From an uncultured bacterium (GTDB taxonomy: Bacteria > Chlamydiota > Chlamydiia > Chlamydiales > SM23-39): a stretch of DNA of 24,355 nt. The notes beneath the pieces were generated by a model. The model did no database searches. It was not told the DNA's origin and worked only from the letters and a program-made list of their open reading frames with translations. The stretch is taken from NCBI GenBank assembly GCA_964631635.1, contig CAZVXG010000002.1, positions 1 through 24,355 on the forward strand. The letters run 5' to 3'. The position numbers and the translations under genes are program-made. Shown piece after piece: positions 1 to 15,381 of this stretch. The first letter of the stretch is position 1; the number at the start of each line of letters is the position of its first letter.

Positions 1-280
1 GATCGACGAAATGCCCCGTGATCGAGCTTGTTTCGATCAGCTGCATGAGCGAATATCCTGTGAGGTGTGCCGATCCGAAATGGACAATAGTCGCCTCGCC
101 AAATCGCGTCATGTCGATCGCATCGACGAGTTCAATGACAAATCGCTCGATGTTCTTTGGATCGGTCACAGAACAGATTTTGCCGCCGCGGCAGTCCAGG
201 ATGAGGTGATACCCCCAAGATCCACAACTTTCTTTCGTCGACGCCGAATATTCAGATGTACAAGTCAAGAGATCCTCCAT
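1..280 (-). CDS. speD: S-adenosylmethionine decarboxylase (SpeD)-family pyruvoyl-dependent proenzyme, 3'-truncated by the window edge; substrate uncertain
   Basis: Not in the ORF track because it runs off the window. Manual translation from ATG 280: MEDLLTCTSEYSASTKESCGSWGYHLILDCRGGKICSVTDPKNIERFVIELVDAIDMTRFGEATIVHFGSAHLTGYSLMQLIETSSITGHFVD. The WGxHLILD start, the VHFG and the G(Y)SxxxLIETSSIxxH segment match the AdoMetDC fold. Alternative TTG start at 268 with a GGAGG SD. Confidence 0.8.
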   Translation of the reverse strand, partial: MEDLLTCTSEYSASTKESCGSWGYHLILDCRGGKICSVTDPKNIERFVIELVDAIDMTRFGEATIVHFGSAHLTGYSLMQLIETSSITGHFVD

Positions 281-321
281 ATTTTGATGAAAAAACGTAT
301 AACGTATTTTTTCTTTCTTTT

Positions 322-1182
322 TCAAACAACAGAAAATTTTGTAGGCATCCTCTCAATGACGTTCATCAATTTCTGGATAAAATGGAAGGTGCCAAAGTCT
401 GAATCTAACGTTGGGTTATATTCGACCATCTCGAAAGCTAGGGGAGGGAATTCTTGAAGCAGAGAAAGAGAAGAAAAAAACTCGTTCGCATCGATTCCTC
501 CCGGTACAGGAGTCCCGACCGCTGAAACAAAAGAGGGATCGATGCTGTCGAGATCGAAACTGAACCCATAACCGACCGTACGGCGGGAAACAATTTCTAA
601 TGCCTCTTTCATCACAGTTTCCAGTCCTCTGGAAATGACTTCTTCCATGAAATAGACCCTCACATTTAATGCCTTCAATAGCTTAGCTTCGCCAGATTCA
701 AAGCTGCGGATGCCGATTAATACAAGATGTTCAGGCTTAATTTTCGGAAAAGGATCGGAAATCTGCGTTAACTGCGCATCCCCATGCCCTAATAGGACTG
801 CGAGAGGCATGCCATGAATGTATCCGCTTTCGGAAGTGGAGGGAGTATGCGCGTCCATATGCGCATCAAACCAAATCAGTCCCAGATCTCCTTTTGGCCT
901 CAAAGCGCTGGCCGCTCCAGACCAAACTCCAATGGCGCTGGAATGATCTCCTCCTATGGAAACAAAAAAAGAATCGTTTTTTACAAACTGGAAAGAAAAT
1001 TGAGCTAGCCTTTGGTTGGAAAAGGCAATCGATCGCAGAATCTTTTGGATTCTTTTATTTGGGAGAATGATCTCGTGACAAGAAAAATTTGGAGAAAGTC
1101 GATCCCTTAAAAATAAAGGACTCTCTCCGCTCCCGGGGCGATTTCCTCCCAAATCTGAAGCCAAGCCAACCCATGGGATCAT
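322..1182 (-). CDS. rocF: Arginase (ureohydrolase family, binuclear Mn)
   Basis: Motifs GGDHS, DAHMD, HGMP, SFDLDSIDP, GTPVPGG and EYNP. ATGA overlap with the tpx stop. Confidence 0.88.
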   Translation of the reverse strand: MIPWVGLASDLGGNRPGSGESPLFLRDRLSPNFSCHEIILPNKRIQKILRSIAFSNQRLAQFSFQFVKNDSFFVSIGGDHSSAIGVWSGAASALRPKGDLGLIWFDAHMDAHTPSTSESGYIHGMPLAVLLGHGDAQLTQISDPFPKIKPEHLVLIGIRSFESGEAKLLKALNVRVYFMEEVISRGLETVMKEALEIVSRRTVGYGFSFDLDSIDPSFVSAVGTPVPGGIDANEFFSSLSLLQEFPPLAFEMVEYNPTLDSDFGTFHFIQKLMNVIERMPTKFSVV

Positions 1183-1700
1183 CGCTTACTTCCCTGATGG
1201 CCTTGCAGCACTTCGAGAGCTTTATGATAGTTGGGTTCCTGGGTGATTTCAGGGACCAGTTCGGTATAGAGAACGTGATCCTTCTCATCGAGGACGATGA
1301 CGGAGCGGGCGAGGATGCCGGCGAGAGGGCCGTCTTCGATCAGGATACCGTACGCAAGGCCGAAATCCTTGCTGCGCATCATGGAAAGAGTCAGTACATT
1401 GTGGACGTTCTCTCCTTCGCAGAAACGCTTTTGCGCGAAAGGGAGATCCGCGGAAACTGTGAGGAATATAAGATCCGGATGCTTCTTGGCAAATTCATTG
1501 AAATGACGGGTCATGATGCTGCAGACGCCGGTGTCCAGGCTGGGAACAGTGGCAAGCAGCTTCCGTTTGCCTTGAAATTCGTGCAGGGTGCGGTCGTTCA
1601 AGTCCTTGTCCACCAACTTGAAGTCAGGCGCTTTGATGTGAAGGGCAGGGAGGGTGCCGTTGGTGCGGATCGGTTTTCCTTTAAGCGCGATCTGTGCCAT
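1179..1700 (-). CDS. tpx: Thiol peroxidase Tpx (atypical 2-Cys peroxiredoxin)
   Basis: VPSLDTGVC peroxidatic motif, SADLPFAQKRFC and LARSVIVLD. Strong SD (AAAGGAG) before ATG 1700. Confidence 0.95.
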   Translation of the reverse strand: MAQIALKGKPIRTNGTLPALHIKAPDFKLVDKDLNDRTLHEFQGKRKLLATVPSLDTGVCSIMTRHFNEFAKKHPDLIFLTVSADLPFAQKRFCEGENVHNVLTLSMMRSKDFGLAYGILIEDGPLAGILARSVIVLDEKDHVLYTELVPEITQEPNYHKALEVLQGHQGSKR

Positions 1701-1723
1701 AAAACTCCTTTCTGATGGAACGA

Positions 1724-2491
1724 TTAAACGACAAAAGGCGCTTTTTCAGCAATGCCGCAATAACCTGTCTTAAGACTTTTGGAAAAACAAAAGCGAAAGT
1801 CTTCACAGACCTTTCGGGTGAAGATCATTTTCCAAAAGGAGCTCGAGCCGAATTTTGGCCTGACGCCCATGATCGTTCGAACGCGAAGACGATGATCGAG
1901 ACAATATTGTTTTAATTCCGCCGGTTTGATGAAGAGCGAATAAACATGCATATTTTTCGGCGTGTTTCGGACGCACCATTCCACTCCTTTGATGACGACG
2001 AGATAGCTCAGGGGATTGCGATTGAACGTATGGAAAAAGAAGACGCCTCCCGGTTTGAGGACCCGCGAGGCTTCCGCGATCAGGAGCTGCGGCTCCTCAA
2101 CGTGCTCGAGTACATCCAGGGCGCAAGCCGCGTCGAAACTTTCATCTGGGAAGGGGAGCGAGTAGGCGCTGGCCCGTTTATAATGAACCTTGCCGGTCGA
2201 GTCGAATTTCCGGGCGATCAAGAGACTGCTTTCAGACAAGTCGATGCCGGTCGCATCATGTCCCACTTGTGCAAGGGCATTGGTTAGGATGCCGGCGCCG
2301 CATCCGATATCGAGAATGGAGATTTTCGCGAGGAAACGCTTTCCGATCTCATCGATGATCCAGGGGGTGCGCAGCTTATTCTCGGCGCGCAAAAGCGCAA
2401 CGGGGTGGTTGCAGGAAGTGTACCATCCTTCATCGAGGCGATCATAGAATTCATTATTGATTAGTGTTTGAGAACCGGTTTGTCTTTCCAT
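1724..2491 (-). CDS. ubiG: UbiG-like SAM-dependent O-methyltransferase (3-demethylubiquinone 3-O-methyltransferase family)
   Basis: Motifs ILDIGCGAG (SAM motif I), LDVLEHV, LKPGGVFFFHTFNRN and HVYSLFIKPAEL; the N-terminal AENKLR resembles UbiG NPLR. Start moved to ATG 2491 (255 aa) because the track start at 2602 lies inside the upstream gene. Confidence 0.82.
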   Translation of the reverse strand: MERQTGSQTLINNEFYDRLDEGWYTSCNHPVALLRAENKLRTPWIIDEIGKRFLAKISILDIGCGAGILTNALAQVGHDATGIDLSESSLLIARKFDSTGKVHYKRASAYSLPFPDESFDAACALDVLEHVEEPQLLIAEASRVLKPGGVFFFHTFNRNPLSYLVVIKGVEWCVRNTPKNMHVYSLFIKPAELKQYCLDHRLRVRTIMGVRPKFGSSSFWKMIFTRKVCEDFRFCFSKSLKTGYCGIAEKAPFVV

Positions 2492-2967
2492 ATGAAATTC
2501 CAGAATACGATTTGATAGATCATAAAACAAGCCACGGCTGAAAATTGCAGTTTCAAGAAGAGCTCGAGCGGTTCTCTTCGGTCTAGCCAGGCGGCGATCC
2601 ATGGCGCAGTCTCGGCTCCATGAACAATCGGCCAGATGAGAGCGGCTGAGCTAAGCGCAATCGGATGGAGGAGAAAGAGCATAGCATGGAACCAATTCTC
2701 AGCGCCGGAGCAATGTTCTTTATGAATGAACTCATCTTTCGTCACCATGAGGCAGGAAAGAGCAGCGAGAAGGCAATAGGGGAGGAGGGTTCCTTTAGAG
2801 AATGGGACGAAGAGGACGTAGCCTACGCAGACGAGGATCGTGAAGGTATCCAAAGGGTGGCCGATCCGCTCCCAGCGCGGAAGTCCACGTCGGCGGTGGA
2901 ACCAGAGCTCATCGATTCCGATGATAATCGCTTGCAAAATAAAGGGGAGAATACTCAAAATCCACAT
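2461..2967 (-). CDS. Uncharacterised ~4-TM membrane protein with a duplicated DE-x2/3-H...E-x3-H motif
   Basis: 168 aa with hydrophobic segments. Overlaps the PKS (13 bp) and the methyltransferase (31 bp). Motifs DELWFH...ERIGHPLD and DEFIH...ENWFH...HP. Confidence 0.8.
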   Translation of the reverse strand: MWILSILPFILQAIIIGIDELWFHRRRGLPRWERIGHPLDTFTILVCVGYVLFVPFSKGTLLPYCLLAALSCLMVTKDEFIHKEHCSGAENWFHAMLFLLHPIALSSAALIWPIVHGAETAPWIAAWLDRREPLELFLKLQFSAVACFMIYQIVFWNFIWKDKPVLKH

Positions 2968-4085
2968 GACTTTTCCATAATGGCTCCGGAAATGCTCAAG
3001 CCAGGTCCGAAGGCGAGGCTGACGACATTCGTTCGATCCTTTGCTTGAGGGTCGGCGAGGATTGCTTCCCAGATATGGGGAAGAGTTGCGGAAGACATAT
3101 TGCCGCAGTTTTTCAAGATTTGGCAGCTATAGGCCATCTGCTGATCGGACAAAGAAAGAAGATTTTGAATATGATCGAGGATTTTTGGGCCTCCAGGATG
3201 GATAGCAAAGAGCATGTTCGAAAGAATCGAGTCGGAAAGTCCAGCCTTCTTGCAAAGTCTTGCGAGATAGCTTTTTAAAGCGCGGGCAATCAGGACTGGA
3301 AGTTCTTTGGATAGAGTCATTTGGAAGCCCCAGTTGACGACATTCCAGGTCATGCTGTTGGACGAGTCGGGAATGATCTCTTCGTGGATCGCAATGATTT
3401 TGAAATGAGGCCCCCGAGGGTCGGCGGAGAGGGTGTATTTGATGAATCCGTCGGCAAACAGGCTTTGGGAGACGAGCTGATCGATCTGGTGCAGGGAAGG
3501 GTTCGAATGGAGACAGCAGATTTCAGTATGGACGATATCAGCCCGCGATCCATTTTTTAAAAATCCAGCCCCCATCCGAATAGCAGGAAAAGCTCCATAG
3601 CACCCCATGTGGTAGGCATGAGTGACAGTCGTGGCGATCCCCCAACCTCGCTTGGAAACAAGCTTCTGCGCGCCGCTAGGCGAGACATAACCGGTACAAC
3701 TCACATGGATCAAATCGGCAGGAGGATCATTCGAATCGGGATAATAGGCTTCGAAGATCCCATCGACGTGCTGCTCGAAGAATTTCGAACGAACCGAGAG
3801 ATCTTTTCCATTCGGAGATTCGATGAGGCGATAGACGTCCATCTTGTCCCAATTGCGATGGAGGAAATCGGCCAGGATGTGTCCCCGTTTCTCAATGTAT
3901 CCAGGCTTGCATCCGACGCGCCAGAGCTTCTGCCGCAATTCTTCTCGAAAAAGGGAGGCTTCTTTTTCGCTCATTCCCCGGGTCAGTTCAGCTTGGCAGT
4001 GAGCTTCTATGAACCAATCGAACGTTTCCAACTGCATGGTTTCGAAAGGAGGGCGGATCGAATGAAAATTAGAAAGTGCGATCAT
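2955..4085 (-). CDS. Type III polyketide synthase (chalcone/stilbene synthase-like)
   Basis: Catalytic triad motifs HMGC*YG (Cys), AIH*PGGPKIL (His) and GN*MSS (Asn), plus HVSCTG and the C-terminal AFGPGL loop. Confidence 0.93.
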   Translation of the reverse strand: MIALSNFHSIRPPFETMQLETFDWFIEAHCQAELTRGMSEKEASLFREELRQKLWRVGCKPGYIEKRGHILADFLHRNWDKMDVYRLIESPNGKDLSVRSKFFEQHVDGIFEAYYPDSNDPPADLIHVSCTGYVSPSGAQKLVSKRGWGIATTVTHAYHMGCYGAFPAIRMGAGFLKNGSRADIVHTEICCLHSNPSLHQIDQLVSQSLFADGFIKYTLSADPRGPHFKIIAIHEEIIPDSSNSMTWNVVNWGFQMTLSKELPVLIARALKSYLARLCKKAGLSDSILSNMLFAIHPGGPKILDHIQNLLSLSDQQMAYSCQILKNCGNMSSATLPHIWEAILADPQAKDRTNVVSLAFGPGLSISGAIMEKSCGF

Positions 4086-4143
4086 GTAGCTTTCATATTT
4101 ATTGATTCTGAATTATATCGCCAGATAATGTGCGCATCGATGG

Positions 4144-4229
4144 ACCCAGGCCTTACGGCCTGGGATTGCAAGCGGTTTGAAAATATCCGGCCTGCCTCGC
4201 AAGTCTTCGACAGAGGGCCGGGTTTCCCG
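4144..4229. repeat. Dispersed structured element, copy A (86 bp; short hairpin plus long irregular hairpin)
   Basis: acccaggccttacggcctggg-attgcaag-cggtttgaaaatatccggcctgcctcgcaagtcttcgacagagggccgggtttcccg aligns to the reverse complement of 7262-7343 with 6 substitutions and 2 indels. Confidence 0.9.
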
Positions 4230-4240
4230 ACGGAGGAGGG

Positions 4241-4447
4241 ATGAAACGATTTTTTTGGCTTTGCCTTTTTTTCGGAGGCTATATCTGGATGATCGTCACC
4301 GGCAACGAACAGTTGGTCCTGGAGCGAACTAGGGCGCTGTACAATTTAGTAGCGCATTGGCTCGAGGATGCCGACATAGATTTTCAACTGCACAACAAAA
4401 AAAAATCGCCCAAGGAAAAGCATCTTCGCCCCAGAAGATGGGATTAA
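4241..4447 (+). CDS. Small hypothetical membrane protein (68 aa)
   Basis: Strong SD (GGAGGAGG) before ATG 4241. N-terminal hydrophobic helix (FFWLCLFFGGYIWMIV) and basic C-tail. Fills the gap convergent to the TauE gene. Confidence 0.7.
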   Translation: MKRFFWLCLFFGGYIWMIVTGNEQLVLERTRALYNLVAHWLEDADIDFQLHNKKKSPKEKHLRPRRWD

Positions 4448-4450
4448 CTC

Positions 4451-5266
4451 TTACCTTCCAAACAATAGTGTTGCGCCCGTGAAGGCCAGTACGCAGGAGA
4501 AAATCCGTTTGATCAATGGCGTCGGAAGCGTGTGCGCAAGCATGACTCCCAAAGGCGTCGTCAAAAGCGAAGCCAATCCCAGAGTCAAAAAACCGGGCAG
4601 ATTAATATAACCGATCGATTGGGGGAGGGGAGGGGCTTTTTGTGCGATGATGATAAAGGCTATGCTGCCGAAAAATGATGAGGTGAGGGTGGAGACAGAA
4701 GAAACCGCCACCGCATTTTTGAGCTGCATTTGATAGCCAAGGAGGATGGGAACCATGAAGATCCCGCCCCCAATGCCCAAAAGAGTCGAGAGACATCCTA
4801 CTCCAAGAGTCCAAATCATCAAGGTCCAGTTCAGATGTGAAGCGATATGCAGCGGAGGCAATTTCGGGAAAAAAAAATAGACGCTTAAAAGAACGATTAC
4901 GATGCCGAAAATGTATCGCAGGAATTCATTTGGAAGATAAAGCGTGAGAATAGCCCCCGCTATGCAGCCCAAGGCAAGACCCGGCACGATCCATTTCAGT
5001 GTATGGAAGATGATCGACTGCCTCCGATGATGAGACCAAACGGCCCCGCAAGAGGTAATGAACGTACTGGCCAAAGCTGTCGCGATGGCGACATGCATGA
5101 GGTTTTCTCTGGGGAATTGGTAGGATCGCAGCATAAAATAGAGAAGAGGAACCGTGATGACCCCTCCGCCGATCCCCAACATTCCCGCAAGAACGCCTGT
5201 CATCGCGCCGAAAAAAATAAAAATCAAAATCTCTTCGATCACTTCTCTTATAATACCATTTATCAA
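4451..5266 (-). CDS. TauE/SafE (TSUP) family sulfite exporter-like membrane protein
   Basis: Two repeated G(M/L)LGIGGG(V/I)xxVPxL motifs in the N- and C-halves, ~8 TM helices and the C-terminal IKRIF motif typical of the family. Confidence 0.85.
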   Translation of the reverse strand: MINGIIREVIEEILIFIFFGAMTGVLAGMLGIGGGVITVPLLYFMLRSYQFPRENLMHVAIATALASTFITSCGAVWSHHRRQSIIFHTLKWIVPGLALGCIAGAILTLYLPNEFLRYIFGIVIVLLSVYFFFPKLPPLHIASHLNWTLMIWTLGVGCLSTLLGIGGGIFMVPILLGYQMQLKNAVAVSSVSTLTSSFFGSIAFIIIAQKAPPLPQSIGYINLPGFLTLGLASLLTTPLGVMLAHTLPTPLIKRIFSCVLAFTGATLLFGR

Positions 5267-5338
5267 AATTAAACTTCAGAACTGCGGACGACTTTTACCT
5301 GCGATCCTGCGCCTTCACTCAAGGCAACTTTCCTCAAA

Positions 5339-5368
5339 TTGTCCTTTCGCTCCAAGCTATGGTATAAT
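5339..5368 (+). promoter_or_regulatory. Sigma66/sigma70-type promoter for the lipoprotein gene
   Basis: TTGTCC (5339-5344), an 18-bp spacer, then TATAAT (5363-5368) with an extended TG (TGGTATAAT). Confidence 0.5.
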
Positions 5369-5423
5369 TACCATATTGACAGTTTTTATTCTACAGGATA
5401 TCGGGTGGATCAAAGAGAGCCTC

Positions 5424-6296
5424 ATGAGATCCGTATTCCTTTGCCTTCCGCTTGCCTTGCTATACGGCTGCATAGCCAATGATGGCCTGAGGTCGGACAG
5501 CGTTGCAGAAACTAACGTCGTGAATCTGTCCCGTTTAAACGTCGGCATGAACCAATCCGATGTTCTCAGGATTATGCGGCAGCCCCACAGTCAGCAGACA
5601 TTCGAAATGGACGAGGCTATTTTCGATATTTGGTTCTATGTGACCAACCCCACCGTCTTAGGACAAACTCGCATGGTGCCGCTGAATCTCACGCCTCTGG
5701 CTTTCAAAAATGGGAATTTGATCGGCTGGGGATTCATCTATTATAACTATTTGGCCAAGCGCAGGGAAGAGGCGTTGAATCCCAAAACACCACCAGCTCC
5801 TCCGATCGAGAAGATCGAAGAGCCAAAAGAGAATATCGAGCTTGAAAAAGTTTTACAGCCAGCTACCGGACAGCAGCAGGCCTCTCCGCCATCCCAAGAG
5901 CAACCGAAGAGGGGACAGCAGCCATCAACTCAGCAACTGCCCAAACAGCAGCAGGCCTCTCCGCCATCCCAAGAGCAATCGAAGAAGGGACAGCAGCCGT
6001 CAACTCAGCAACTGCCCAAACAGCAGCAGGCCTCTCCGCAATCTCAAGAAAACCCGAATTGGGGACCGATAGAGTCGCCGCAGCAACGACCGCAATCAAA
6101 GCCTCAGCAACGACCGCAACCGAAGCCGGGCAACGCCAAGCCCCCAATATCCATGTCTTCCAAACCCCAGAAACCAGATCCGCATCCGCCTGACTCCCAG
6201 CCAATGCAGGAACAAGAGAAAAAAAAATTGCCTTTGAATGAAAAGGATGAGCAAATGCTCGAAGAGGAATTAGAGCAAAACTTCAATCAAACCTGA
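5424..6296 (+). CDS. Putative lipoprotein, DUF3192/SmpA-OmlA(BamE)-like domain with a long Gln/Pro/Ser-rich C-terminal tail
   Basis: Start moved to ATG 5424 (290 aa): MRSVFLCLPLALLYGC has a lipobox-like LYG-C16. The domain pattern LxVGM...V..IM..P...WFYVT...TPLAFKNGxLIGWG matches DUF3192 as I recall it. Confidence 0.7.
   Translation: MRSVFLCLPLALLYGCIANDGLRSDSVAETNVVNLSRLNVGMNQSDVLRIMRQPHSQQTFEMDEAIFDIWFYVTNPTVLGQTRMVPLNLTPLAFKNGNLIGWGFIYYNYLAKRREEALNPKTPPAPPIEKIEEPKENIELEKVLQPATGQQQASPPSQEQPKRGQQPSTQQLPKQQQASPPSQEQSKKGQQPSTQQLPKQQQASPQSQENPNWGPIESPQQRPQSKPQQRPQPKPGNAKPPISMSSKPQKPDPHPPDSQPMQEQEKKKLPLNEKDEQMLEEELEQNFNQT
5871..6049 (+). repeat. In-frame 75-bp tandem repeat (about 2.4 copies; QQQASPPSQEQxKxGQQPSTQQLPK)
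   Basis: Units start at 5871, 5946 and 6021. A second 24-bp duplication (PQQRPQxK; cagcaacgaccgcaa at 6081 and 6105) follows. Confidence 0.95.
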
Positions 6297-6327
6297 TGCG
6301 TCTTACCTTTGGATATCGTCTTGCATA

Positions 6328-6355
6328 ACGTCTGATAATACATGTTATGTTAAAC
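6328..6355 (+). other. dif: dif site (XerCD chromosome dimer resolution site)
   Basis: ACGTCTGATAA-TACATG-TTATGTTAAAC has the 11-6-11 architecture. The right arm matches the E. coli XerD arm TTATGTTAAAT at 10/11 positions and the left arm ends in the conserved ATAA. It is intergenic between convergent genes, and KOPS-like octamer polarity flips here. Confidence 0.85.
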
Positions 6356-6375
6356 AAAAAGAAGGCGCTCCGGTC

Positions 6376-6421
6376 GATACGCGGCAGCTCCCTGGCGGCA
6401 AACCGGTGCCGGCCGCGTCTT
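6376..6421. terminator. GC-rich stem-loop between convergent genes (possible terminator or structured element)
   Basis: acgcggc (6379-6385) pairs with gccgcgt (6412-6418), with an inner ctgg/ccgg stem. Followed by only a short T run. Confidence 0.35.
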
Positions 6422-6452
6422 TAATGGCTGTCGCCCTCTGCATCCTTGCGGA

Positions 6453-7025
6453 TCAATAGCTACAGAAAATTCTCATTCTATCGTAGATTGTCTTGCCTTG
6501 CTCTGCGATCTGATCTCGATACATGTAGCCAGCAATTCCGGCTGCGCCAAGAACACCGAGGCCGGCCCCTGCCATTGCGACTGTTTTTATTGATGGACGG
6601 CGAGAAACTGGTTGCTTTGTTATTTGATCGTCTTGTTTTTGAACGATGCCAGTTTGCTCTGTTATTTGATCGTCTTGTTTTTGAACGATACCAGTTTGTT
6701 CAGCTGCTTTCTGAACGTTTTCTGCTACAGAAGCGATTCTTGCTTGCAGCACTTGGTGTGCATTTTCAAGCGCGGGGCTGATGTGTGCGTCATCAATAAT
6801 TGCGCGCTGTACATCTGCCGTCTTGTCGCTAAGAGAGCGGAATGCGTCAAGAATGACTTGATAAGAAACGGGTTCTTCGGTTTGTGCGTTTACAATTTTT
6901 TTACCTTGTAAAGTCTGTTCTGTAACAAATACAATTTTGTCCAGATTTCTTTCGCGACAATTTTGGTTTCTCGCAAAAGACTCCATGACCGCCGCAGTGC
7001 TTGCTGAAGATACATTCGTTGCCAT
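6453..7025 (-). CDS. Orphan protein with a C-terminal single TM helix (candidate secreted effector)
   Basis: Start moved to ATG 7025 (190 aa; SD-like AAGGGT; the track start at 7079 overlaps the -10 box). Ser/Thr/Ala-rich N-terminus, helical Q-rich middle and a Gly-rich TM VAMAGAGLGVLGAAGIAGYMY. Confidence 0.65.
   Translation of the reverse strand: MATNVSSASTAAVMESFARNQNCRERNLDKIVFVTEQTLQGKKIVNAQTEEPVSYQVILDAFRSLSDKTADVQRAIIDDAHISPALENAHQVLQARIASVAENVQKAAEQTGIVQKQDDQITEQTGIVQKQDDQITKQPVSRRPSIKTVAMAGAGLGVLGAAGIAGYMYRDQIAEQGKTIYDRMRIFCSY
6612..6698 (-). repeat. In-frame 42-bp tandem duplication (EQTGIVQKQDDQIT x2)
   Basis: Units 6612-6653 and 6654-6695 differ at 2 positions. Confidence 0.95.
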
Positions 7026-7067
7026 AATAAATACCCTTTGTTTAATATTATTATCAAAAACAATTAA

Positions 7068-7096
7068 ATTATAGCACATTCTAAATAAAATGAAAA
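7068..7096 (-). promoter_or_regulatory. Sigma66/sigma70-type promoter for the orphan gene
   Basis: Minus strand: TTTTCA (7096-7091), 17 bp, TATAAT (7073-7068) with an extended TG, inside a very AT-rich tract. Confidence 0.6.
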
Positions 7097-7261
7097 CTAA
7101 AAAAAACGAAAATTAACTTGTATATAAATAAAAAATAAATATAAACTAAAATATGTTTAATTTTAAAATTGATTTTTTATAACAGTGAACACAAAGTAAA
7201 TTCAAAAATTCGATAGACTTTTGCAGCGAGTTCGTGATATAAAAATTGCTCTATCCCGAAG

Positions 7262-7343
7262 CGGGAAACCAGGCCCTCCTCTGTCAAAGACAAGCGAGGC
7301 AGGCCGGGTATTTTCAAACCGACCCAGGCCTTAAGGCCTGGGT
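7262..7343. repeat. Dispersed structured element, copy B (82 bp), inverted relative to copy A
   Basis: Reverse complement aligns to 4144-4229. Includes the perfect 22-bp palindrome acccaggccttaaggcctgggt (7322-7343). Confidence 0.9.
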
Positions 7344-7361
7344 TCATTAAATGGGATAACC

Positions 7362-7643
7362 GTGGCAAATGAACTTCCGTTTCCTCAAGCCAAATCGACG
7401 ACATTGGAAAACCTGGAAGTAATCCAAACGAGCCTGATCCGCTGCGTAGGCGAAGGAATGATCGATCTGGAGGATACTTATTATAACGAGATTCTCGGGC
7501 TCATCGAGGAAGCCGAGATCGTCGATACGTGGGATGAGCTGATGGAGGTCATTACGCATGCCAAGACCCTAGAAAACGATGTAGCCGCCTGGCTTTCCGT
7601 GCATGGCCGTACGACCGTTTCCCTCCCCTGGCCAAGACGATGA
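7362..7643 (+). CDS. Small acidic hypothetical protein (93 aa)
   Basis: GTG start with a GGGA SD-like sequence. Amphipathic helical pattern; 17 Asp/Glu vs 6 Lys/Arg. Fits the gap before the convergent rlmB. Confidence 0.7.
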   Translation: MANELPFPQAKSTTLENLEVIQTSLIRCVGEGMIDLEDTYYNEILGLIEEAEIVDTWDELMEVITHAKTLENDVAAWLSVHGRTTVSLPWPRR

Positions 7644-7657
7644 GGGAAATGGCCCCA

Positions 7658-8437
7658 TTAGAAGTTTTTTACTTGATACAAAGCGATCAGGATCGAAGCG
7701 GCGGCCGAGACATTCAATGAGTCGATCTTCCCGTTCATCGGGATAAAAAGGGACCGGTCAGCCTTTTTGCGGATTAGAGGCTGAATCCCCTCCCCTTCAG
7801 ACCCGACAATGAGAAGAGTCCGTGGAGCAAAGGAGAAGGTAAAGGCATTCTCTGAGGAGGGATTTAAAAGAGCGGCGCATGCCTCAAAGCCCCCCTCCTG
7901 AAACTGCCCTACCGCTTCAGCCAGGTTGGAGATCCGGATTAAAGGAAGCAGTTCGCTTGCTCCGCAGCTAGCTTTTGCAACTGTTGGAGTAAGCCCAGCG
8001 CCCCGATTCTTCGACCAGGCGATCGCGTCGGCTCCCAAGCACTCGGCGCTCCGGATCAAGGAGCCAAAATTCTGCGGATCGAAGATCTGGTCGACCATCA
8101 AAACAAGAGACTTTTTTTTCCCTTCGATCCCTTGCAAAAATTGTTTCACGCTGAGAAAAGAGCGCCCTTTTACATGCGCGACTACGAATTGGTGCGATTC
8201 GGATTCAGTCATCCGGTTGAGCTGTTGCTGAGAGGCGATAGAGAAAGGAACCCCATTTTTTTCGCAAAGTTGTAAAAGCTCTGATTTCCTCCCTCCTTTT
8301 GGTTCCTCGATATAGACTCGGATCAGCCGCTCCGGAACATGGAGCAACAGTTCGCGTACAGCGTGGATGCCCATCACCAGCTGATCGCTTGGCGGTAGAC
8401 GGGAGCCAGGTTGGCGATAGGAATGGGGATCGTTCAT
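7658..8437 (-). CDS. rlmB: 23S rRNA (Gm2251) 2'-O-methyltransferase RlmB, SpoU/TrmH family
   Basis: N-terminal GIHAVRELL, SpoU motifs DPQNFGSLIRSA, GSEGEG and IPMNGKIDSLNVS. Confidence 0.9.
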   Translation of the reverse strand: MNDPHSYRQPGSRLPPSDQLVMGIHAVRELLLHVPERLIRVYIEEPKGGRKSELLQLCEKNGVPFSIASQQQLNRMTESESHQFVVAHVKGRSFLSVKQFLQGIEGKKKSLVLMVDQIFDPQNFGSLIRSAECLGADAIAWSKNRGAGLTPTVAKASCGASELLPLIRISNLAEAVGQFQEGGFEACAALLNPSSENAFTFSFAPRTLLIVGSEGEGIQPLIRKKADRSLFIPMNGKIDSLNVSAAASILIALYQVKNF

Positions 8438-8440
8438 CCG

Positions 8441-9409
8441 TTATAACTCTCTAGACACCATAAACCACCCTGAGATGGGAGTCCAGCGCACTTTGAGTTT
8501 TTGAGAGATCGTACTCGCTGCGGGCGCAGCAGCCGGTTGGATCGAAATGGTTTGGCTGTGGAGATTCGTTTCCAAAAGGGTCGAAGAGAAATAATGGATC
8601 TGGGTTCCAAAACCTACGCGCCATAGATTGGAAATTACGCAATCGATCTGCGCCCAACCCGTTTGGCCGATATTTCCATTCCCTTTAGTCCGAAAAAACC
8701 AGAAGGTTTCCTGTTGGCTGACCAGGTTGTGATCGAACAAAGAGACCGTTTTCCTGAACTGGGTTCTAAACCGAATATTTAGCCAATGATAGCTATACCC
8801 TCCATTGAAGATCAGCCTGTTGCCAGGTTCGATCATGAATCCAACGCCGACAAAAAAACCGTACCAGGCGGAATGGAGTCTGCCAGGAAGGAAGGATTGC
8901 ATCGCAAAAGAAGTCGCTCCGACGGCGTCTGTCGATTCCAATGGATTCGGCCGGCTGCCGCTCCTCCGGATCTGTTCGAAATGAGCGCTGTAGCCGACTA
9001 AAGGGAGCAGGATCGTTTTGTAGGTGCGATCGGCGGTGAGATTGACCGCGTAGCTGAACCTGCCTGAAGCGTCCGCCGCCCACCCATCTGTATCGAACCG
9101 GAATTGAGGCTGCTGAGCCGTGAATGGGAGATCGGAGTAGCGCTGGAAAAGGCTCCCTTTTCCAAAGGCCGCATAGCTCCCGCAAAGAAAGAAGGCAAGG
9201 TCGCGGTGGATGGCTTTTAAACTTAAACCATTCTCCCAGAATCCGACATCGCGGTACCGTTCGCTATACGTGAGAAGACCCGTCCCCCCTTCCTGTAAGT
9301 GCCAATGGAGCCGGTCGTTCCGATATCCGCTCAAAAGCTCGAAGCGAAGAGGTTCATTCATCGTAGCGGCCAGAGAAATGGCGAATAGAAAGGGCCAGAA
9401 AAATCTCAT
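8441..9409 (-). CDS. Outer-membrane beta-barrel protein, Pom (Protochlamydia outer membrane protein)/omptin-like
   Basis: Sec-type signal peptide, GYRxDxLxW near the N-terminus, alternating aromatic beta-strands (PLVGYS, WYGFFVGVG, GGYSYHW). Confidence 0.6.
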   Translation of the reverse strand: MRFFWPFLFAISLAATMNEPLRFELLSGYRNDRLHWHLQEGGTGLLTYSERYRDVGFWENGLSLKAIHRDLAFFLCGSYAAFGKGSLFQRYSDLPFTAQQPQFRFDTDGWAADASGRFSYAVNLTADRTYKTILLPLVGYSAHFEQIRRSGSRPNPLESTDAVGATSFAMQSFLPGRLHSAWYGFFVGVGFMIEPGNRLIFNGGYSYHWLNIRFRTQFRKTVSLFDHNLVSQQETFWFFRTKGNGNIGQTGWAQIDCVISNLWRVGFGTQIHYFSSTLLETNLHSQTISIQPAAAPAASTISQKLKVRWTPISGWFMVSREL

Positions 9410-9420
9410 GACGGAAGAGT

Positions 9421-10101
9421 TTATCCGATTTGCTTCAAGCTGTCGAGGTGTTGCGGCCGCTTGCGGGTGGACCAGTAGTCTGGGCCGTAGTCATAAAGGA
9501 GCTGCGCCCCTTTTGGAATCGGCTCATTTGCGAGCAAAATGATATGGCTGATCCTGTCGAATGTTGCGAGCGTCGAGAGTAAATTAGGGGTGTCGCTGTG
9601 GTTGATGAATCTGGCGATCCCCCCCTGGTTTTGAGCATCGATGATGTAAGGAGTAGGGACGCCCGCCGCTGCAGCATACTCGAAACAATAGGCGTTTTTC
9701 CTGTCTTCCCGCCGCCGCTTCCGTACTTTTCCGCAATATTCTCCGATGAATTCTCTCTTTTTGAAAGGTCGATGCGCAAAGACCCCCCAACCAATGTCAG
9801 GATCAATCCATCGGAAGATTATATCGGGAAGAAATAAGGATTCGATTTCCTTTCGATAATAGCTGCCCAGCCAAAGCTGATGACGGGTGAACTCCCCCCG
9901 TTTATGGAGCTGCTCAGTCCGCGCGGCGAGTCTTTGCAAGGTCTTCCGATCTCCGAAGTCTAACTGAGGAACAAACGCAAAGTTGGTAAGCGCTTCGAAT
10001 TCCGGGATCGAGAGGAGCTTTTCCTCTTCCTCGATTTCGACGCGGATCGAACCGCTGACGCGGCGCAGGGGCGGAAGTGACGGAAGATCCTTAAAGAGCA
10101 T
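9421..10101 (-). CDS. SET-domain protein lysine methyltransferase (chlamydial NUE/CT737-like size and architecture)
   Basis: GWGVFA, IGEYCG, RFINHSDTPN and LLYDYG motifs. Start moved to ATG 10101 (226 aa), which overlaps the upstream TAA (TAATG). Confidence 0.88.
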   Translation of the reverse strand: MLFKDLPSLPPLRRVSGSIRVEIEEEEKLLSIPEFEALTNFAFVPQLDFGDRKTLQRLAARTEQLHKRGEFTRHQLWLGSYYRKEIESLFLPDIIFRWIDPDIGWGVFAHRPFKKREFIGEYCGKVRKRRREDRKNAYCFEYAAAAGVPTPYIIDAQNQGGIARFINHSDTPNLLSTLATFDRISHIILLANEPIPKGAQLLYDYGPDYWSTRKRPQHLDSLKQIG

Positions 10102-11069
10102 TAAAATAATTTTGGCTTTTGATGATGTCCCTTCCAGAAAACAGCGCCGTAATCGAAGGTGAGTTGCTCTCCCTCGTGGATCTCTTTCAAAGCGACGAAG
10201 ATCATCCTGGGAATGCCTCTCCAATAAACTGATTGCAATCCTAAATTTGGCTGAGCGGAGTGGTTGATGAACCGGGTGAAATTCCCCATCTTTTCCGCAT
10301 CGAGGACATATTTCCTGCCTCCCATTTCCCAGATCGCATAGCGGATGTAATGGAACTTGGATTTCAACGCTCTTTTTTTTGCCTCTACCAATTGGCCTGT
10401 GTATTCCCCTACAAGAGCGCACGGGGAGATCCGTTGCGCGGCAAAAACTCCGAATCCCACCTCGTCGTCGATAAAACGAAGGGAGACCTTGGGATGGATG
10501 TCTGCGAGGAGCTCGTAATCGAAATAGATCCCCATCCAGATCCTTTCATTGGGAATCGCATCCTCCGCTTTTGCTTTTTGCGCCAGGCGCATCACCTCGC
10601 GGAGTACTTTTTCCGATTCGAAAAGAGGCTGGGAAATGTACGTCAAATCATACAAGGCCTCGAAGCGCTTTCTGTCCTCAAAAGATACGTTGGGCTGCTC
10701 GCAAAAGATAATACTGGGAGAAGGTCGGAGGATGGAGATGATTTTTTCACGCGGAAGCAGCCGCGCCAATTCCACTGGCGTCAAGCCCGACGCATTCCTC
10801 CGCCGTTTCAAATGCGGCTGCTCTCTTGCGGCCGCCTCCGCGATATCGGCCAGGTTCAACAAAACAGCTAAGTGGAGGACCGAATAGCTCTCTCCTGTAG
10901 ACGCCAAGCGGGAGAAGAGATAGGCATCTCTTGGATGCCGTTGAAGAAACTCCTCCCAGGACAGCTTTCCCTCTGAAAGGAGATTCAGTTCCGATTGGAA
11001 TTGGCCATCTGGCGGAGAGCCGTTTTCTGGCGCAGAAACGGAAAGAGGAAAAAAAAGAGCAGTCTCCAT
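10101..11069 (-). CDS. Ankyrin-like repeat plus SET-domain protein
   Basis: ANK-like YSVLHLAVLLN...GLTPVELA; SET motifs GFGVFA, VGEYTG, RFINHSAQPN and LTFDYG. Start ATG 11069 has a GGAGGT SD 7 nt upstream (alternative start 11108). Confidence 0.85.
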   Translation of the reverse strand: METALFFPLSVSAPENGSPPDGQFQSELNLLSEGKLSWEEFLQRHPRDAYLFSRLASTGESYSVLHLAVLLNLADIAEAAAREQPHLKRRRNASGLTPVELARLLPREKIISILRPSPSIIFCEQPNVSFEDRKRFEALYDLTYISQPLFESEKVLREVMRLAQKAKAEDAIPNERIWMGIYFDYELLADIHPKVSLRFIDDEVGFGVFAAQRISPCALVGEYTGQLVEAKKRALKSKFHYIRYAIWEMGGRKYVLDAEKMGNFTRFINHSAQPNLGLQSVYWRGIPRMIFVALKEIHEGEQLTFDYGAVFWKGHHQKPKLF

Positions 11070-11176
11070 ATCGTACACCTCCCTCGGCTGTTTTTTTTTG
11101 AAGAACATAACCTATTAGCACTTCAACAACCTTTATACAAGTTTTTTTGGAGTTCAAGAGAAAAAAGAGCCGGTGT

Positions 11177-12707: not shown

Positions 12708-12723
12708 AGTATTGAGAAGGACA

Positions 12724-13503
12724 ATGAGATTTTTGATTGGATGGATTGTTATGTTTACAGCGGCTTTGGCAGGAGAAGCGAACGCCGGAATTTCGGCCAA
12801 CGGAATTGGCACCCAAGACCGGGTGCAGGAAGCGCCGTTCGTGATCATTCTAATGGGGCCGCCTGGAGCGGGAAAAGGGACTCATGCAGTGCCGCTGAGC
12901 GATCACCTGCAGATCCCCCACATTTCCACGGGCGATCTTTTCCGTGAGAATATCCGCAACCAAACCTCTCTCGGACGGAAAGCGAAAAGCTATATCGATC
13001 AAGGGAAACTCGTTCCCGACGAAGTGGTTCTGAACCTGATCTTTGCAAGAGTTGAACAGGCCGATTGCAAACGGGGCTATATCCTCGATGGCTTCCCACG
13101 CACGGTGGCTCAAGCCAAAGCCCTGGATCAACACCTGCGAAGCCATTCTTGCCGGGTCTTTGCAGTGAACCTGGATGTTCCCGACGCTCTGCTCATCGAG
13201 CGGATTTCAGGGCGAATCGCTTGCAAAAATTGCGGCCAGCCCTATCACAAAAGCTACACTCCCCCGAAAAAAGAGGGCGTATGCGACAGTTGCAAAGGCG
13301 CTCTTTATCAGCGCGATGACGATCGGGAAGAGATCCTGCGGAAACGGCTGGAAGTCTATCATGCGCAAACCAAGCCGCTGATCGAGTACTACAGCCGGCA
13401 GAAAAATGTCTTGCGCGAAGTCGAGGCGTGGCAGGGTAAAGAAGAGGTCTTTCAATCGGTTCTGAAAGCGGTAGATGCTCCCGCAATGGCTTCAGCTGGT
13501 TAG
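12724..13503 (+). CDS. adk: Adenylate kinase (long, Zn-binding LID) with an N-terminal signal-peptide-like extension
   Basis: P-loop GPPGAGKGT, HISTGDLFR, LDGFPRT, LID CKNC-x16-CDSC and QRDDD. ATG 12724 follows GAGAAGGA. Confidence 0.95.
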   Translation: MRFLIGWIVMFTAALAGEANAGISANGIGTQDRVQEAPFVIILMGPPGAGKGTHAVPLSDHLQIPHISTGDLFRENIRNQTSLGRKAKSYIDQGKLVPDEVVLNLIFARVEQADCKRGYILDGFPRTVAQAKALDQHLRSHSCRVFAVNLDVPDALLIERISGRIACKNCGQPYHKSYTPPKKEGVCDSCKGALYQRDDDREEILRKRLEVYHAQTKPLIEYYSRQKNVLREVEAWQGKEEVFQSVLKAVDAPAMASAG

Positions 13504-15305: not shown

Positions 15306-15381
15306 AATTTTCCTGTTTATCTGTGTCATTATATCAGGAATAGGTATTTATTATCATTAAAATTTATGAATGTAAATTAAA

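What the first reader, a model, noticed from the sequence alone, without database searches (positions are those of the whole stretch)
1724..4085. Type III PKS + putative membrane metallo-enzyme + UbiG-like O-methyltransferase: candidate prenyl-free polyketide-quinone pathway
Seen: three overlapping genes; the PKS has an intact Cys-His-Asn triad and the methyltransferase has UbiG-specific motifs. Established: bacterial type III PKSs make alkylresorcinols/alkylpyrones from acyl-CoA/ACP. Streptomyces SrsABC (PKS, methyltransferase, hydroxylase) makes alkylquinones, and mycobacterial type III PKS-derived polyketide quinones act as alternative electron carriers. UbiG methylates ring hydroxyls of ubiquinone precursors. 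Inference: this cassette may build an alkyl-methoxy-(hydro)quinone, a ubiquinone analogue, as a respiratory carrier or membrane antioxidant in an intracellular bacterium. I know of no characterised product for this three-gene combination.
Basis: partly seen in the sequence, partly recalled or inferred. Interest (0 to 1): 0.75.

Follow-up and report, generated by a model that had tools for sequence, protein, structure and literature searches.

The report
Chlamydial alkylresorcinol operon, unknown membrane protein
A soil chlamydia carries three tightly coupled genes (a resorcinol-type polyketide synthase, an unclassified metal-site-like membrane protein and a UbiG-like methyltransferase) that probably make a methylated phenolic or quinone membrane lipid; the middle protein belongs to no described family.

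Summary
Three translationally coupled minus-strand genes lie at 1724-4085 in a soil Chlamydiota MAG.

- **PKS (2955-4085):** a type III PKS with its Cys162/His296/Asn329 triad. Its closest solved relative is Azotobacter ArsC, and it has Trp247 at the ArsB position that directs alkylresorcinol rather than pyrone formation.
- **Membrane protein (2461-2967):** 168 aa, five helices.
- **Methyltransferase:** UbiG-family. It most likely starts at 2491, not 2602.

The ubiquinone alternative fails. This is the only UbiG-class gene in five chlamydial genomes checked. Their UbiA-family genes that I classified are heme O synthase and MenA. The MenA-less genomes carry MqnP-like prenyltransferases instead.

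The trio keeps its order in 76 of 81 loci, including cultured Pigmentibacter ruber. The membrane protein and the methyltransferase are fused in planctomycete-like contigs and in two chlamydiae.

The membrane protein folds confidently (pLDDT 97) but matches no Pfam family and no solved fold. Its invariant Asp/Glu/His cluster lies on the cytoplasmic side.

Best reading: alkylresorcinol synthesis, then ring modification (probably hydroxylation) by the membrane protein, then O-methylation. A respiratory role is untested, and every cassette genome I checked also had a prenylquinone prenyltransferase.

This scan has already reported the same cassette in at least 13 other genomes.

The parts
2955..4085 (-). 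Type III polyketide synthase (376 aa), ArsB/ArsC-like, predicted long-chain alkylresorcinol synthase. Triad C162/H296/N329. Trp247 sits at the ArsB Trp281 position.
   Evidence: Pfam Chal_sti_synt_C/N. PDB 3VS9 1.3e-67 against 3VS8 7.9e-66; the query Trp aligns to Trp of the ArsC G284W mutant and to Gly of the wild type. Motif positions. Role of Trp281/Gly284 from PMC6274091.
2461..2967 (-). 168-aa five-helix integral membrane protein of an undescribed family. Invariant or near-invariant D19 E20 H24 R27 E33 H37 D40 K77 D78 E79 H82 C86 E90 H94 H101 lie at the cytoplasmic ends of helices 1, 2 and 4 and in the 3-4 loop. Candidate dimetal ring-modifying enzyme and obligate partner of the methyltransferase.
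   Evidence: No Pfam or NCBIfam match. 292 clusters at 50% identity. Conservation. AF2 pLDDT 97.4, pTM 0.91. No fold match. Fused to the methyltransferase in other genomes.
1724..2491 (-). UbiG/Coq3-family SAM-dependent O-methyltransferase (255 aa from ATG 2491; the longest ORF runs from 2602).
   Evidence: TIGR01983 UbiG 140 bits, cut-off 103. E. coli UbiG 4KDC 8e-27. Start inferred from the conserved Met in relatives and the fusion junction.
2955..2967 (-). 13-nt overlap of the PKS stop with the membrane-protein start (translational coupling).
   Evidence: ORF coordinates. The same arrangement recurs in relatives.
2461..2491 (-). 31-nt overlap of the membrane-protein 3' end with the methyltransferase start. 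This is the point where the two ORFs are fused in other genomes.
   Evidence: Sequence read. Relatives. Fusions.

Best explanation
This is a three-gene operon for a tailored phenolic membrane lipid.

Step 1 (inferred from homology and one diagnostic residue): the ArsB-like type III PKS takes a long-chain acyl-CoA or acyl-ACP starter, adds three malonyl units and cyclises by aldol condensation to a 5-alkylresorcinol.

Step 2 (inferred, the weakest step): the five-helix membrane protein holds its Asp/Glu/His cluster in the cytoplasmic leaflet. There it binds the amphipathic product and modifies the ring, most likely by metal-dependent hydroxylation. It would take the place of the FAD monooxygenase of the srsABC, pkqABC and hidABC clusters.

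Step 3 (inferred from family membership): the UbiG-like enzyme O-methylates a ring hydroxyl. It is physically coupled to the membrane protein and fused to its cytoplasmic C-terminus in some genomes. The product would be a methoxy-alkyl-(hydro)quinol or quinone, or at minimum an alkylresorcinol methyl ether.

My probabilities:
- Methylated alkylresorcinol-derived lipid: about 0.75.
- Membrane protein is catalytic: about 0.6.
- It is specifically a ring hydroxylase giving a quinol: about 0.35.

The physiological role is open. It could be an envelope or antioxidant lipid, or an auxiliary electron carrier.
For: - PKS family, triad and Trp247 at the ArsB Trp281 position (PMC6274091).
- The methyltransferase scores above the UbiG equivalog cut-off and aligns through UbiG's specific C-terminal segment.
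- No ubiquinone route: the cassette gene is the only UbiG-class hit in 5 genomes, and the classified UbiA-family genes are heme O synthase and MenA.
- Coupled ORFs with 13-nt and 31-nt overlaps.
- PKS, membrane protein and methyltransferase are in order in 76 of 81 loci, including Pigmentibacter ruber from another phylum.
- Membrane-protein::methyltransferase fusions lie directly after a PKS in planctomycete-like and other contigs and occur in two chlamydiae.
- The membrane protein has a confident model. About 15 invariant charged or His residues lie on the side carrying the positively charged loops and the C-terminus that is fused to the cytoplasmic methyltransferase.
- No FAD oxidoreductase lies beside any cassette I inspected. 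That is consistent with displacement of the SrsC/PkqC/HidB step.
Against: - There is no biochemical datum for any member.
- The membrane protein has no detectable homology or fold match to any hydroxylase or metalloenzyme.
- The apparent DE-x-H / E-x3-H motif repeat aligns in register but without statistical support (hhalign probability 1.5%).
- No electron donor is encoded in the operon.
- I could not inspect model coordinates, so the residues are not shown to form one site.
- Family assignment of the methyltransferase does not fix its substrate or regiochemistry. In Gimesia maris a cluster methyltransferase gave C-methylation (PMC10896814).
- No RNA run was listed, so expression is unshown.
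Confidence: 0.55

Rival explanations
1. The membrane protein is not an enzyme. It anchors the soluble UbiG-like methyltransferase to the membrane and presents, or flips and exports, the alkylresorcinol. The end product is then a simple alkylresorcinol methyl ether with no extra oxygen and no quinone.
For: - Fusion to the methyltransferase and strict adjacency fit an anchor equally well.
- There is no fold or family link to any oxygenase.
- No reductase or electron donor is in the operon.
Against: - An anchor would not need about 15 invariant Asp/Glu/His/Lys/Arg/Cys residues kept across phyla at 32-57% overall identity.
- E. coli UbiG binds membranes through its own insertion segment, and that segment is conserved here.
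Confidence: 0.25
2. Functional reading: the product is a polyketide quinone used as an auxiliary respiratory electron carrier. This would parallel mycobacterial and Streptomyces PkQ, for example in the dormant elementary-body stage.
For: - PkqABC and SrsABC show that PKS + methyltransferase + oxygenase trios give alkylbenzoquinones, which are induced in dormant or hypoxic cells alongside menaquinone (PMC9927152).
- As in actinobacteria, the cassette here co-occurs with a menaquinone-type prenyltransferase.
Against: - No cassette genome I tested lacks a prenylquinone prenyltransferase.
- The cassette is patchy: 91 of 400 genomes of the order and 23 of 49 in the window's own family. It is therefore dispensable.
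- Quinone formation itself is unproven.
Confidence: 0.15
3. Functional reading: the product is a structural or protective envelope lipid, like Azotobacter cyst alkylresorcinols or the Streptomyces phenolic lipids, or a membrane antioxidant.
For: - The closest PKS relatives (ArsB/ArsC) make cyst-coat lipids (PMC4824345).
- In this lineage the operon lies beside a peroxiredoxin, which follows the methyltransferase in 44 of 81 loci.
Against: The peroxiredoxin link is lineage synteny. It occurs without the cassette (genera g19, g49), and the cassette occurs without it in all cassette-bearing genomes of families f29 (13) and f3 (4). The planctomycete type III PKS mutant did not reproduce the known alkylresorcinol phenotypes (PMC10896814).
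Confidence: 0.3
4. The UbiG-like gene is an ordinary ubiquinone-biosynthesis gene, and its position beside a PKS is coincidental.
For: It scores above the UbiG equivalog cut-off, and sources annotate fused relatives as UbiG.
Against: - No 4-hydroxybenzoate prenyltransferase was found. The UbiA-family genes classified are heme O synthase and MenA.
- The trio is conserved across phyla, and the methyltransferase is fused to the membrane protein.
Confidence: 0.02

Closest known systems
srsABC (Streptomyces griseus) and pkqABC (Mycobacterium smegmatis, Streptomyces sp. MNU77): alkylresorcinol to alkylbenzoquinone operons
   Same: A three-gene operon led by a Trp281-type alkylresorcinol synthase, followed by two tailoring genes, one of them a methyltransferase. 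It occurs in organisms that also make menaquinone (PMC9927152).
   Different: The oxygenase there is a soluble oxidoreductase/hydroxylase. Here that slot is held by a 168-aa membrane protein with no homology to it. The methyltransferase here is UbiG-class. I did not compare it directly with SrsB or PkqB.
hidABC (Cyanobium hierridins) and the planctomycete methyltransferase / FAD-oxidoreductase / type III PKS operon
   Same: Alkylresorcinol synthase plus methyltransferase plus an oxygen-adding step. It is widespread in the sister phylum Planctomycetota (PMC10896814, PMC8086630).
   Different: The gene order is reversed (methyltransferase, oxidoreductase, PKS). It has an FAD oxidoreductase instead of the membrane protein. 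The planctomycete-like contigs carrying this family instead have PKS followed by a membrane-protein::methyltransferase fusion.
ArsB/ArsC of the Azotobacter vinelandii arsABCD operon
   Same: The closest solved structure (1e-67 over 290 residues). It shares the catalytic triad and the Trp that specifies resorcinol.
   Different: No ArsA/ArsD-type dedicated fatty-acid synthase genes lie here, and the ars operon has no methyltransferase or membrane partner.
Coq7/UbiF followed by Coq3/UbiG: the last two steps of ubiquinone synthesis
   Same: The logic of a membrane-associated metal hydroxylase handing a new ring hydroxyl to a UbiG-family O-methyltransferase. The membrane protein's carboxylate/His pairs recall E...ExxH di-iron motifs.
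   Different: The resemblance is only by analogy. The fold searches returned no ferritin-like protein, the motif spacing differs, and the substrate would be a polyketide rather than a prenylated benzoquinol.
BpsA/BpsB (Bacillus subtilis): type III PKS with a small membrane methyltransferase
   Same: A type III PKS followed by a membrane protein of about 170 aa that tailors the lipid (from my own knowledge, not checked here).
   Different: BpsB is an ICMT-family methyltransferase. The protein here has no ICMT or PEMT Pfam match and is accompanied by a separate soluble methyltransferase.

Membership tests
Type III polyketide synthase (chalcone/stilbene synthase superfamily) | Thiolase-fold KS domains with a Cys-His-Asn catalytic triad | tested here: met
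   Pfam Chal_sti_synt_C 5e-22 and Chal_sti_synt_N 2.5e-7. C162, H296 and N329 align to ArsC's triad.
ArsB-type alkylresorcinol synthase | An aromatic residue (Trp281 of ArsB) at the position that is Gly284 in the pyrone-forming ArsC | tested here: met
   The query SMTW247 aligns to TMTW of 3VS9 (ArsC G284W) and to TMTG of 3VS8 (wild type). The mutant scores 6 bits higher. Rule taken from PMC6274091.
ArsB-type alkylresorcinol synthase | Product is a long-chain 5-alkylresorcinol | not testable with these tools
   This needs expression and GC/LC-MS.
UbiG/Coq3 O-methyltransferase | Scores above the curated equivalog threshold and carries the UbiG-specific segment after the Rossmann core | tested here: met
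   TIGR01983 140 bits against a cut-off of 102.95. It aligns to 4KDC residues 43-221.
UbiG/Coq3 O-methyltransferase | Acts within a ubiquinone pathway (UbiA-type 4-hydroxybenzoate prenyltransferase and ring hydroxylases present) | tested here: not met
   The UbiA-family genes classified are heme O synthase (own genome, G004) and MenA (G004). The own genome also has MenA matches. The only UbiG-class gene in each of 5 genomes is the cassette one. It is therefore UbiG-like in sequence but not a ubiquinone enzyme.
srsABC/pkqABC/hidABC-type alkylresorcinol-tailoring operon | A flavin-dependent oxidoreductase/hydroxylase gene in the operon | tested here: not met
   The neighbours are TauE, peroxiredoxin and arginase. 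No FAD enzyme lies beside the cassette.
Ferritin-like di-iron carboxylate oxidases (Coq7, AOX) | A four-helix-bundle fold with 2 x (E ... ExxH) | tested here: not met
   No such chain appears among the Foldseek or VIA-align matches. The motifs are DEx3H/Ex3H and DEx2H/Ex3H.
Any Pfam or NCBIfam membrane-protein family (FA_hydroxylase, ICMT, CPBP, UbiA and others) | A significant profile match | tested here: not met
   0 families for the protein itself. Across 72 family members no family was matched by more than 4 members, and the best E-value was 0.0036.

The most novel reading that the evidence does not exclude
The 168-aa protein founds a new class of integral-membrane dimetal (probably di-iron) aromatic-ring hydroxylases. 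It would work as a hydroxylate-then-methylate module with a UbiG-like O-methyltransferase and would non-orthologously replace the flavin monooxygenase of the known alkylresorcinol-to-quinone pathways. Environmental chlamydiae and several other phyla would then make a prenyl-free methoxy-alkylquinone alongside menaquinone.
Probability: 0.3. Interest if true: 0.8.

Novelty: new variant of a known kind. Interest (0 to 1): 0.58.

Why it matters
Alkylresorcinol-derived lipids and polyketide quinones are known in Azotobacter, actinobacteria, cyanobacteria and planctomycetes. There they serve dormancy, envelope protection or respiration at low oxygen.

This cassette would extend that chemistry to obligate intracellular chlamydiae. 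About a quarter of the genomes sampled in the order carry it.

It also points to a compact membrane protein family that is well conserved and absent from Pfam. The family has 292 clusters at 50% identity. In the 84 genomic contexts inspected, a type III PKS is adjacent or within about 3.5 kb in all but one locus, which is cut at the contig end. Where the contig extends far enough, a UbiG-like methyltransferase almost always follows the membrane gene or is fused to it.

If the protein is a new membrane metallo-oxygenase, it would be of interest to enzymologists. It would also give a handle on lipid remodelling in the chlamydial developmental cycle. A cultured carrier, Pigmentibacter ruber, makes this testable.

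Tried and rejected
1. Fold identification of the membrane protein. Foldseek against the PDB gave a best E of 0.78. AFDB clusters returned only two unnamed family members. VIA-align over 48,161 chains gave a best Z of 9.4 (a bestrophin), below the roughly 13 expected by chance for helical bundles. The ESM Atlas returned only the protein's own cluster. No assignment.

2. Pfam at E up to 10 for 72 family members gave only scattered noise.

3. Internal duplication. hhalign of residues 1-57 against 58-118 aligns the DE..H/E...H motifs in register but at probability 1.5%. I treat this as suggestive only.

4. Test of whether the cassette replaces menaquinone. Families f29 and f3 have the cassette but no MenA. 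Five such genomes all carry a second UbiA-family gene. Three of the four I classified exceed the TIGR01475 cut-off, with MqnP models next. I reject the idea that the cassette is a sole quinone route.

5. Peroxiredoxin as a fourth operon member. It follows the methyltransferase in 44 of 81 loci. Close orthologues also occur without the cassette, and the cassette occurs without them (f29 0/29; in f3 the two sets do not overlap). I reject it as an obligate partner.

6. TauE as an operon member. It lies upstream on the same strand in 34 of 81 loci, but a terminator-like hairpin (4440-4421) separates it here. I do not include it.

7. The 142-nt overlap, or a frameshift-made fusion. The overlap is explained by an upstream in-frame ATG. 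I did not search for slippery sites.

8. Expression. No RNA run was listed.

9. The search for related loci with the 72-sequence alignment failed because no conserved stretch was usable. I repeated it with 12 sequences.

10. I could not read the model's coordinates, so no distances between the invariant residues were measured.
Full report
**What is there**

The window is contig C2 of a 1.30-Mb Chlamydiota MAG of 279 contigs, 79% complete. The same sequence occurs in several soil metagenome runs. Homologues of its genes are almost all labelled Chlamydiae, Parachlamydiales or Rhabdochlamydiaceae.

Three ORFs lie head to tail on the minus strand:
- 2955-4085, 376 aa.
- 2461-2967, 168 aa.
- 1724-2602, 292 aa as the longest ORF.

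**The PKS**

It carries both chalcone/stilbene-synthase domains. Its best solved relative by a wide margin is Azotobacter vinelandii ArsC (3VS9 1.3e-67, 3VS8 7.9e-66; the next hit is 8.6e-28).

The triad Cys162/His296/Asn329 aligns to that of ArsC.

The two ArsC entries differ at one residue, and the query scores better against the G284W mutant. Its SMTW247 aligns to TMTW in 3VS9 and to TMTG in the wild type. According to PMC6274091, Trp281 of ArsB and Gly284 of ArsC decide between aldol cyclisation (alkylresorcinol) and lactonisation (alkylpyrone). The same criterion was used for PkqA and the Streptomyces MNU77 enzyme (PMC9927152). The chlamydial enzyme is therefore predicted to be an alkylresorcinol synthase. 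This is inference from one diagnostic residue plus homology.

**The methyltransferase**

It passes the NCBIfam UbiG equivalog threshold (140 bits against 103). It aligns to E. coli UbiG (4KDC, 8e-27) through the segment that follows the Rossmann core.

The longest ORF would overlap the middle gene by 142 nt. Several observations point to a later start:
- In natural fusions the membrane domain ends at ...YQxxYWN and is followed after a short linker by INNxFY....WY. That corresponds to residues 45-61 of the long ORF.
- A Met just upstream of INN is present in 10 of the 11 related chlamydial loci that carry the methyltransferase. In nine of them it reads ME(R/K/G/T).
- That Met is ATG 2491-2489 here.

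The gene therefore most likely runs 2491-1724. The real overlaps are 13 nt (PKS/membrane protein) and 31 nt (membrane protein/methyltransferase).

**Is UbiG explained by ubiquinone synthesis? No.**

- In the window's genome and four relatives, the only hit above the UbiG cut-off is the cassette gene.
- Those five genomes carry two or three UbiA-family matches each. The ones I classified are heme O synthase (own genome and G004) and MenA (G004). The own genome also has MenA matches.
- This lineage therefore makes menaquinone, which needs no O-methylation.

**The middle protein**

It has no Pfam or NCBIfam match, even at E up to 10 across 72 family members. It nevertheless has 1240 word-indexed homologues and 292 clusters at 50% identity in an exhaustive search.

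AlphaFold2 with a 72-sequence alignment gives pLDDT 97.4 and pTM 0.91. The model has five long helices plus two short ones.

No search assigns a known fold:

| Search | Result |
|---|---|
| Foldseek, PDB | best E 0.78 |
| Foldseek, AFDB clusters | only two unnamed family members |
| VIA-align, 48,161 chains | best Z 9.4, within the noise stated for helical bundles |
| ESM Atlas | only the protein's own cluster |

Invariant or nearly invariant residues are D19 E20 H24 R27 E33 H37 D40 K77 D78 E79 H82 C86 E90 H94 H101 Q152 W156.

They map as follows:
- The end of helix 1.
- The start of helix 2.
- The helix 3-4 connection.
- One face of helix 4.

All of these are on the side that carries the basic loop RRRGLPRWER and the C-terminus. 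Because the C-terminus is fused to a cytoplasmic SAM enzyme in other genomes, that side is the cytoplasm. This topology is inferred from the positive-inside rule and the fusions.

The pattern DE-x3-H-x8-E-x3-H (helices 1-2) recurs as DE-x2-H-x7-E-x3-H (helices 3'-4). hhalign places the two in register but without significance (probability 1.5%). A cluster of five His and six or seven carboxylates at a membrane interface is what a dimetal site would look like. I could not measure distances in the model, and no metalloenzyme homology exists.

**Linkage**

In 12 chlamydial genomes first sampled, the middle gene is flanked by the PKS, and in 11 of them the methyltransferase follows.

I then examined 81 loci: the best 80 of 400 species-level genomes that encode a relative, plus Pigmentibacter ruber. 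PKS, membrane protein and methyltransferase occur in that order on one strand in 76. Most exceptions sit at contig ends. P. ruber, from a different phylum and cultured, has the same trio with overlapping genes.

All ten long representatives (304-420 aa) are membrane domain + methyltransferase fusions. In the three whose context could be read, the fusion gene starts at the stop of a type III PKS. One contig carries planctomycete signature families DUF1501 and PSD2. Two chlamydiae (G405, same family; G400) also encode single 460-aa and 480-aa fusion ORFs. This recurrent fusion is the strongest evidence that the membrane protein and the methyltransferase act together on the same substrate.

**Distribution and the respiratory hypothesis**

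| Group | Cassette marker | MenA |
|---|---|---|
| Whole order | 91/400 (78/302 high-quality) | 264/400 |
| f1 (window's family) | 23/49 | 40/49 |
| f7 | 35/48 | 46/48 |
| f27 | 4/4 | 4/4 |
| f29 | 13/29 | 0/29 |
| f3 | 4/23 | 0/23 |

Families f29 and f3 carry the cassette without MenA, which could have meant that the cassette replaces menaquinone. It does not. Five such genomes each have a second UbiA-family gene. Three of the four I classified pass the TIGR01475 'UbiA-like polyprenyltransferase' cut-off, with MqnP (futalosine-route) models as the next hits.

The cassette is therefore optional and always accompanied by a prenylquinone prenyltransferase in what I tested. That is the same situation as PkQ in actinobacteria (PMC9927152). 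It neither supports nor excludes an auxiliary-carrier role.

**Neighbours**

A Redoxin-family peroxiredoxin (1179-1700) follows the methyltransferase in 44 of 81 loci. A TauE-family permease (4451-5266) precedes the PKS in 34 of 81.

Close peroxiredoxin orthologues occur without the cassette (genera g19, g49). The cassette occurs without them: 0 of 29 in f29, and in f3 the two sets do not overlap. I read this as lineage synteny and not as part of the pathway.

A terminator-like hairpin at 4440-4421 lies between TauE and the PKS. This is a consensus match only.

**Comparison with known systems**

The gene logic parallels srsABC/pkqABC (PKS, methyltransferase, oxidoreductase giving an alkylbenzoquinone; PMC9927152). 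It also parallels hidABC and the planctomycete methyltransferase / FAD-oxidoreductase / PKS operon (PMC10896814, PMC8086630).

The difference is the third component. No flavoprotein lies beside any cassette I inspected, and an unrelated small membrane protein holds that slot, coupled to a UbiG-class methyltransferase. UbiG's natural partners are ring hydroxylases (UbiH, UbiF or Coq7) that create the hydroxyl it methylates. That is why I favour hydroxylation as the membrane protein's reaction. This rests on analogy.

Chlamydial type III PKS clusters are mentioned in the literature only as antiSMASH predictions (PMC9666466, PMC13229535). I found no paper on the membrane family.

**Earlier notes of this scan**

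After I had formed the reading above, I found that the same cassette had been reported on at least 13 other genomes (chlamydiae and a Fibrobacterota genome). Follow-ups reached the same conclusions: ArsB-like PKS, undescribed metal-site-like membrane family, fusion to the methyltransferase.

- The explicit 3VS8/3VS9 residue comparison.
- The corrected methyltransferase start.
- Chlamydial fusion ORFs.
- The MenA/MqnP cross-check.
- Rejection of the peroxiredoxin as an obligate partner.

**Verdict**

This is a real, conserved operon. It is a new variant of the known alkylresorcinol-tailoring pathways, and its interest lies in the uncharacterised membrane protein. The polyketide-quinone and respiratory reading remains a reasonable but unproven hypothesis.

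Noticed in passing
window 4173-4216 and 7278-7321: A 44-nt inverted-repeat pair, 91% complementary and 3 kb apart. One arm lies about 90-130 nt upstream of the PKS start codon. There is no Rfam match in 1-8000.
   Followed up: partly
window 5870-6094: Three tandem 75-nt repeats (96% and 72% identical to the first) inside the 380-aa DUF3192-containing ORF 5154-6296. They encode a Gln/Pro-rich repeat.
   Followed up: no
window 6612-6695: A 42-nt tandem duplication (95% identical) within the region of the unassigned ORF 6453-7079.
   Followed up: no
window 1179-1700: A Redoxin/AhpC-family peroxiredoxin lies 23 nt downstream of the methyltransferase. It is 56-86% identical across the 44 of 81 related loci that carry it downstream of the methyltransferase (directly adjacent in about two thirds of these), but it is not an obligate partner of the cassette.
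   Followed up: yes
window 9421-11108: Two adjacent SET-domain proteins (ORFs 9421-10422 and 10101-11108) next to a Protochlamydia-type outer membrane protein (8441-9409).
   Followed up: no
window 12712-13503: An adenylate kinase whose ADK domain begins only at residue 47 of the longest ORF. It has either an N-terminal extension or a later start.
   Followed up: no
window 13542-15329: A 595-aa protein with ankyrin repeats and a weak C-terminal DnaJ match (9e-5, below the Pfam cut-off).
   Followed up: no
genomes G265, G241, G112, G103, G038 (loci L104-L108): Chlamydial families f29 and f3 show no MenA in 0/29 and 0/23 genomes. They carry a UbiA-like/MqnP-like prenyltransferase instead, which suggests family-level use of the futalosine route rather than the classical menaquinone route.
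   Followed up: partly
L114 203-1585 (G405) and L115 253-1695 (G400): In two chlamydiae the membrane protein and the methyltransferase form single ORFs of 460 and 480 aa with linkers of roughly 50-70 residues. Split and fused forms therefore interconvert within the phylum.
   Followed up: yes
L011 (G007:C91): One relative has PKS and the membrane gene but no methyltransferase within the 1.5 kb that follows, and its membrane protein has a divergent C-terminal tail.
   Followed up: no
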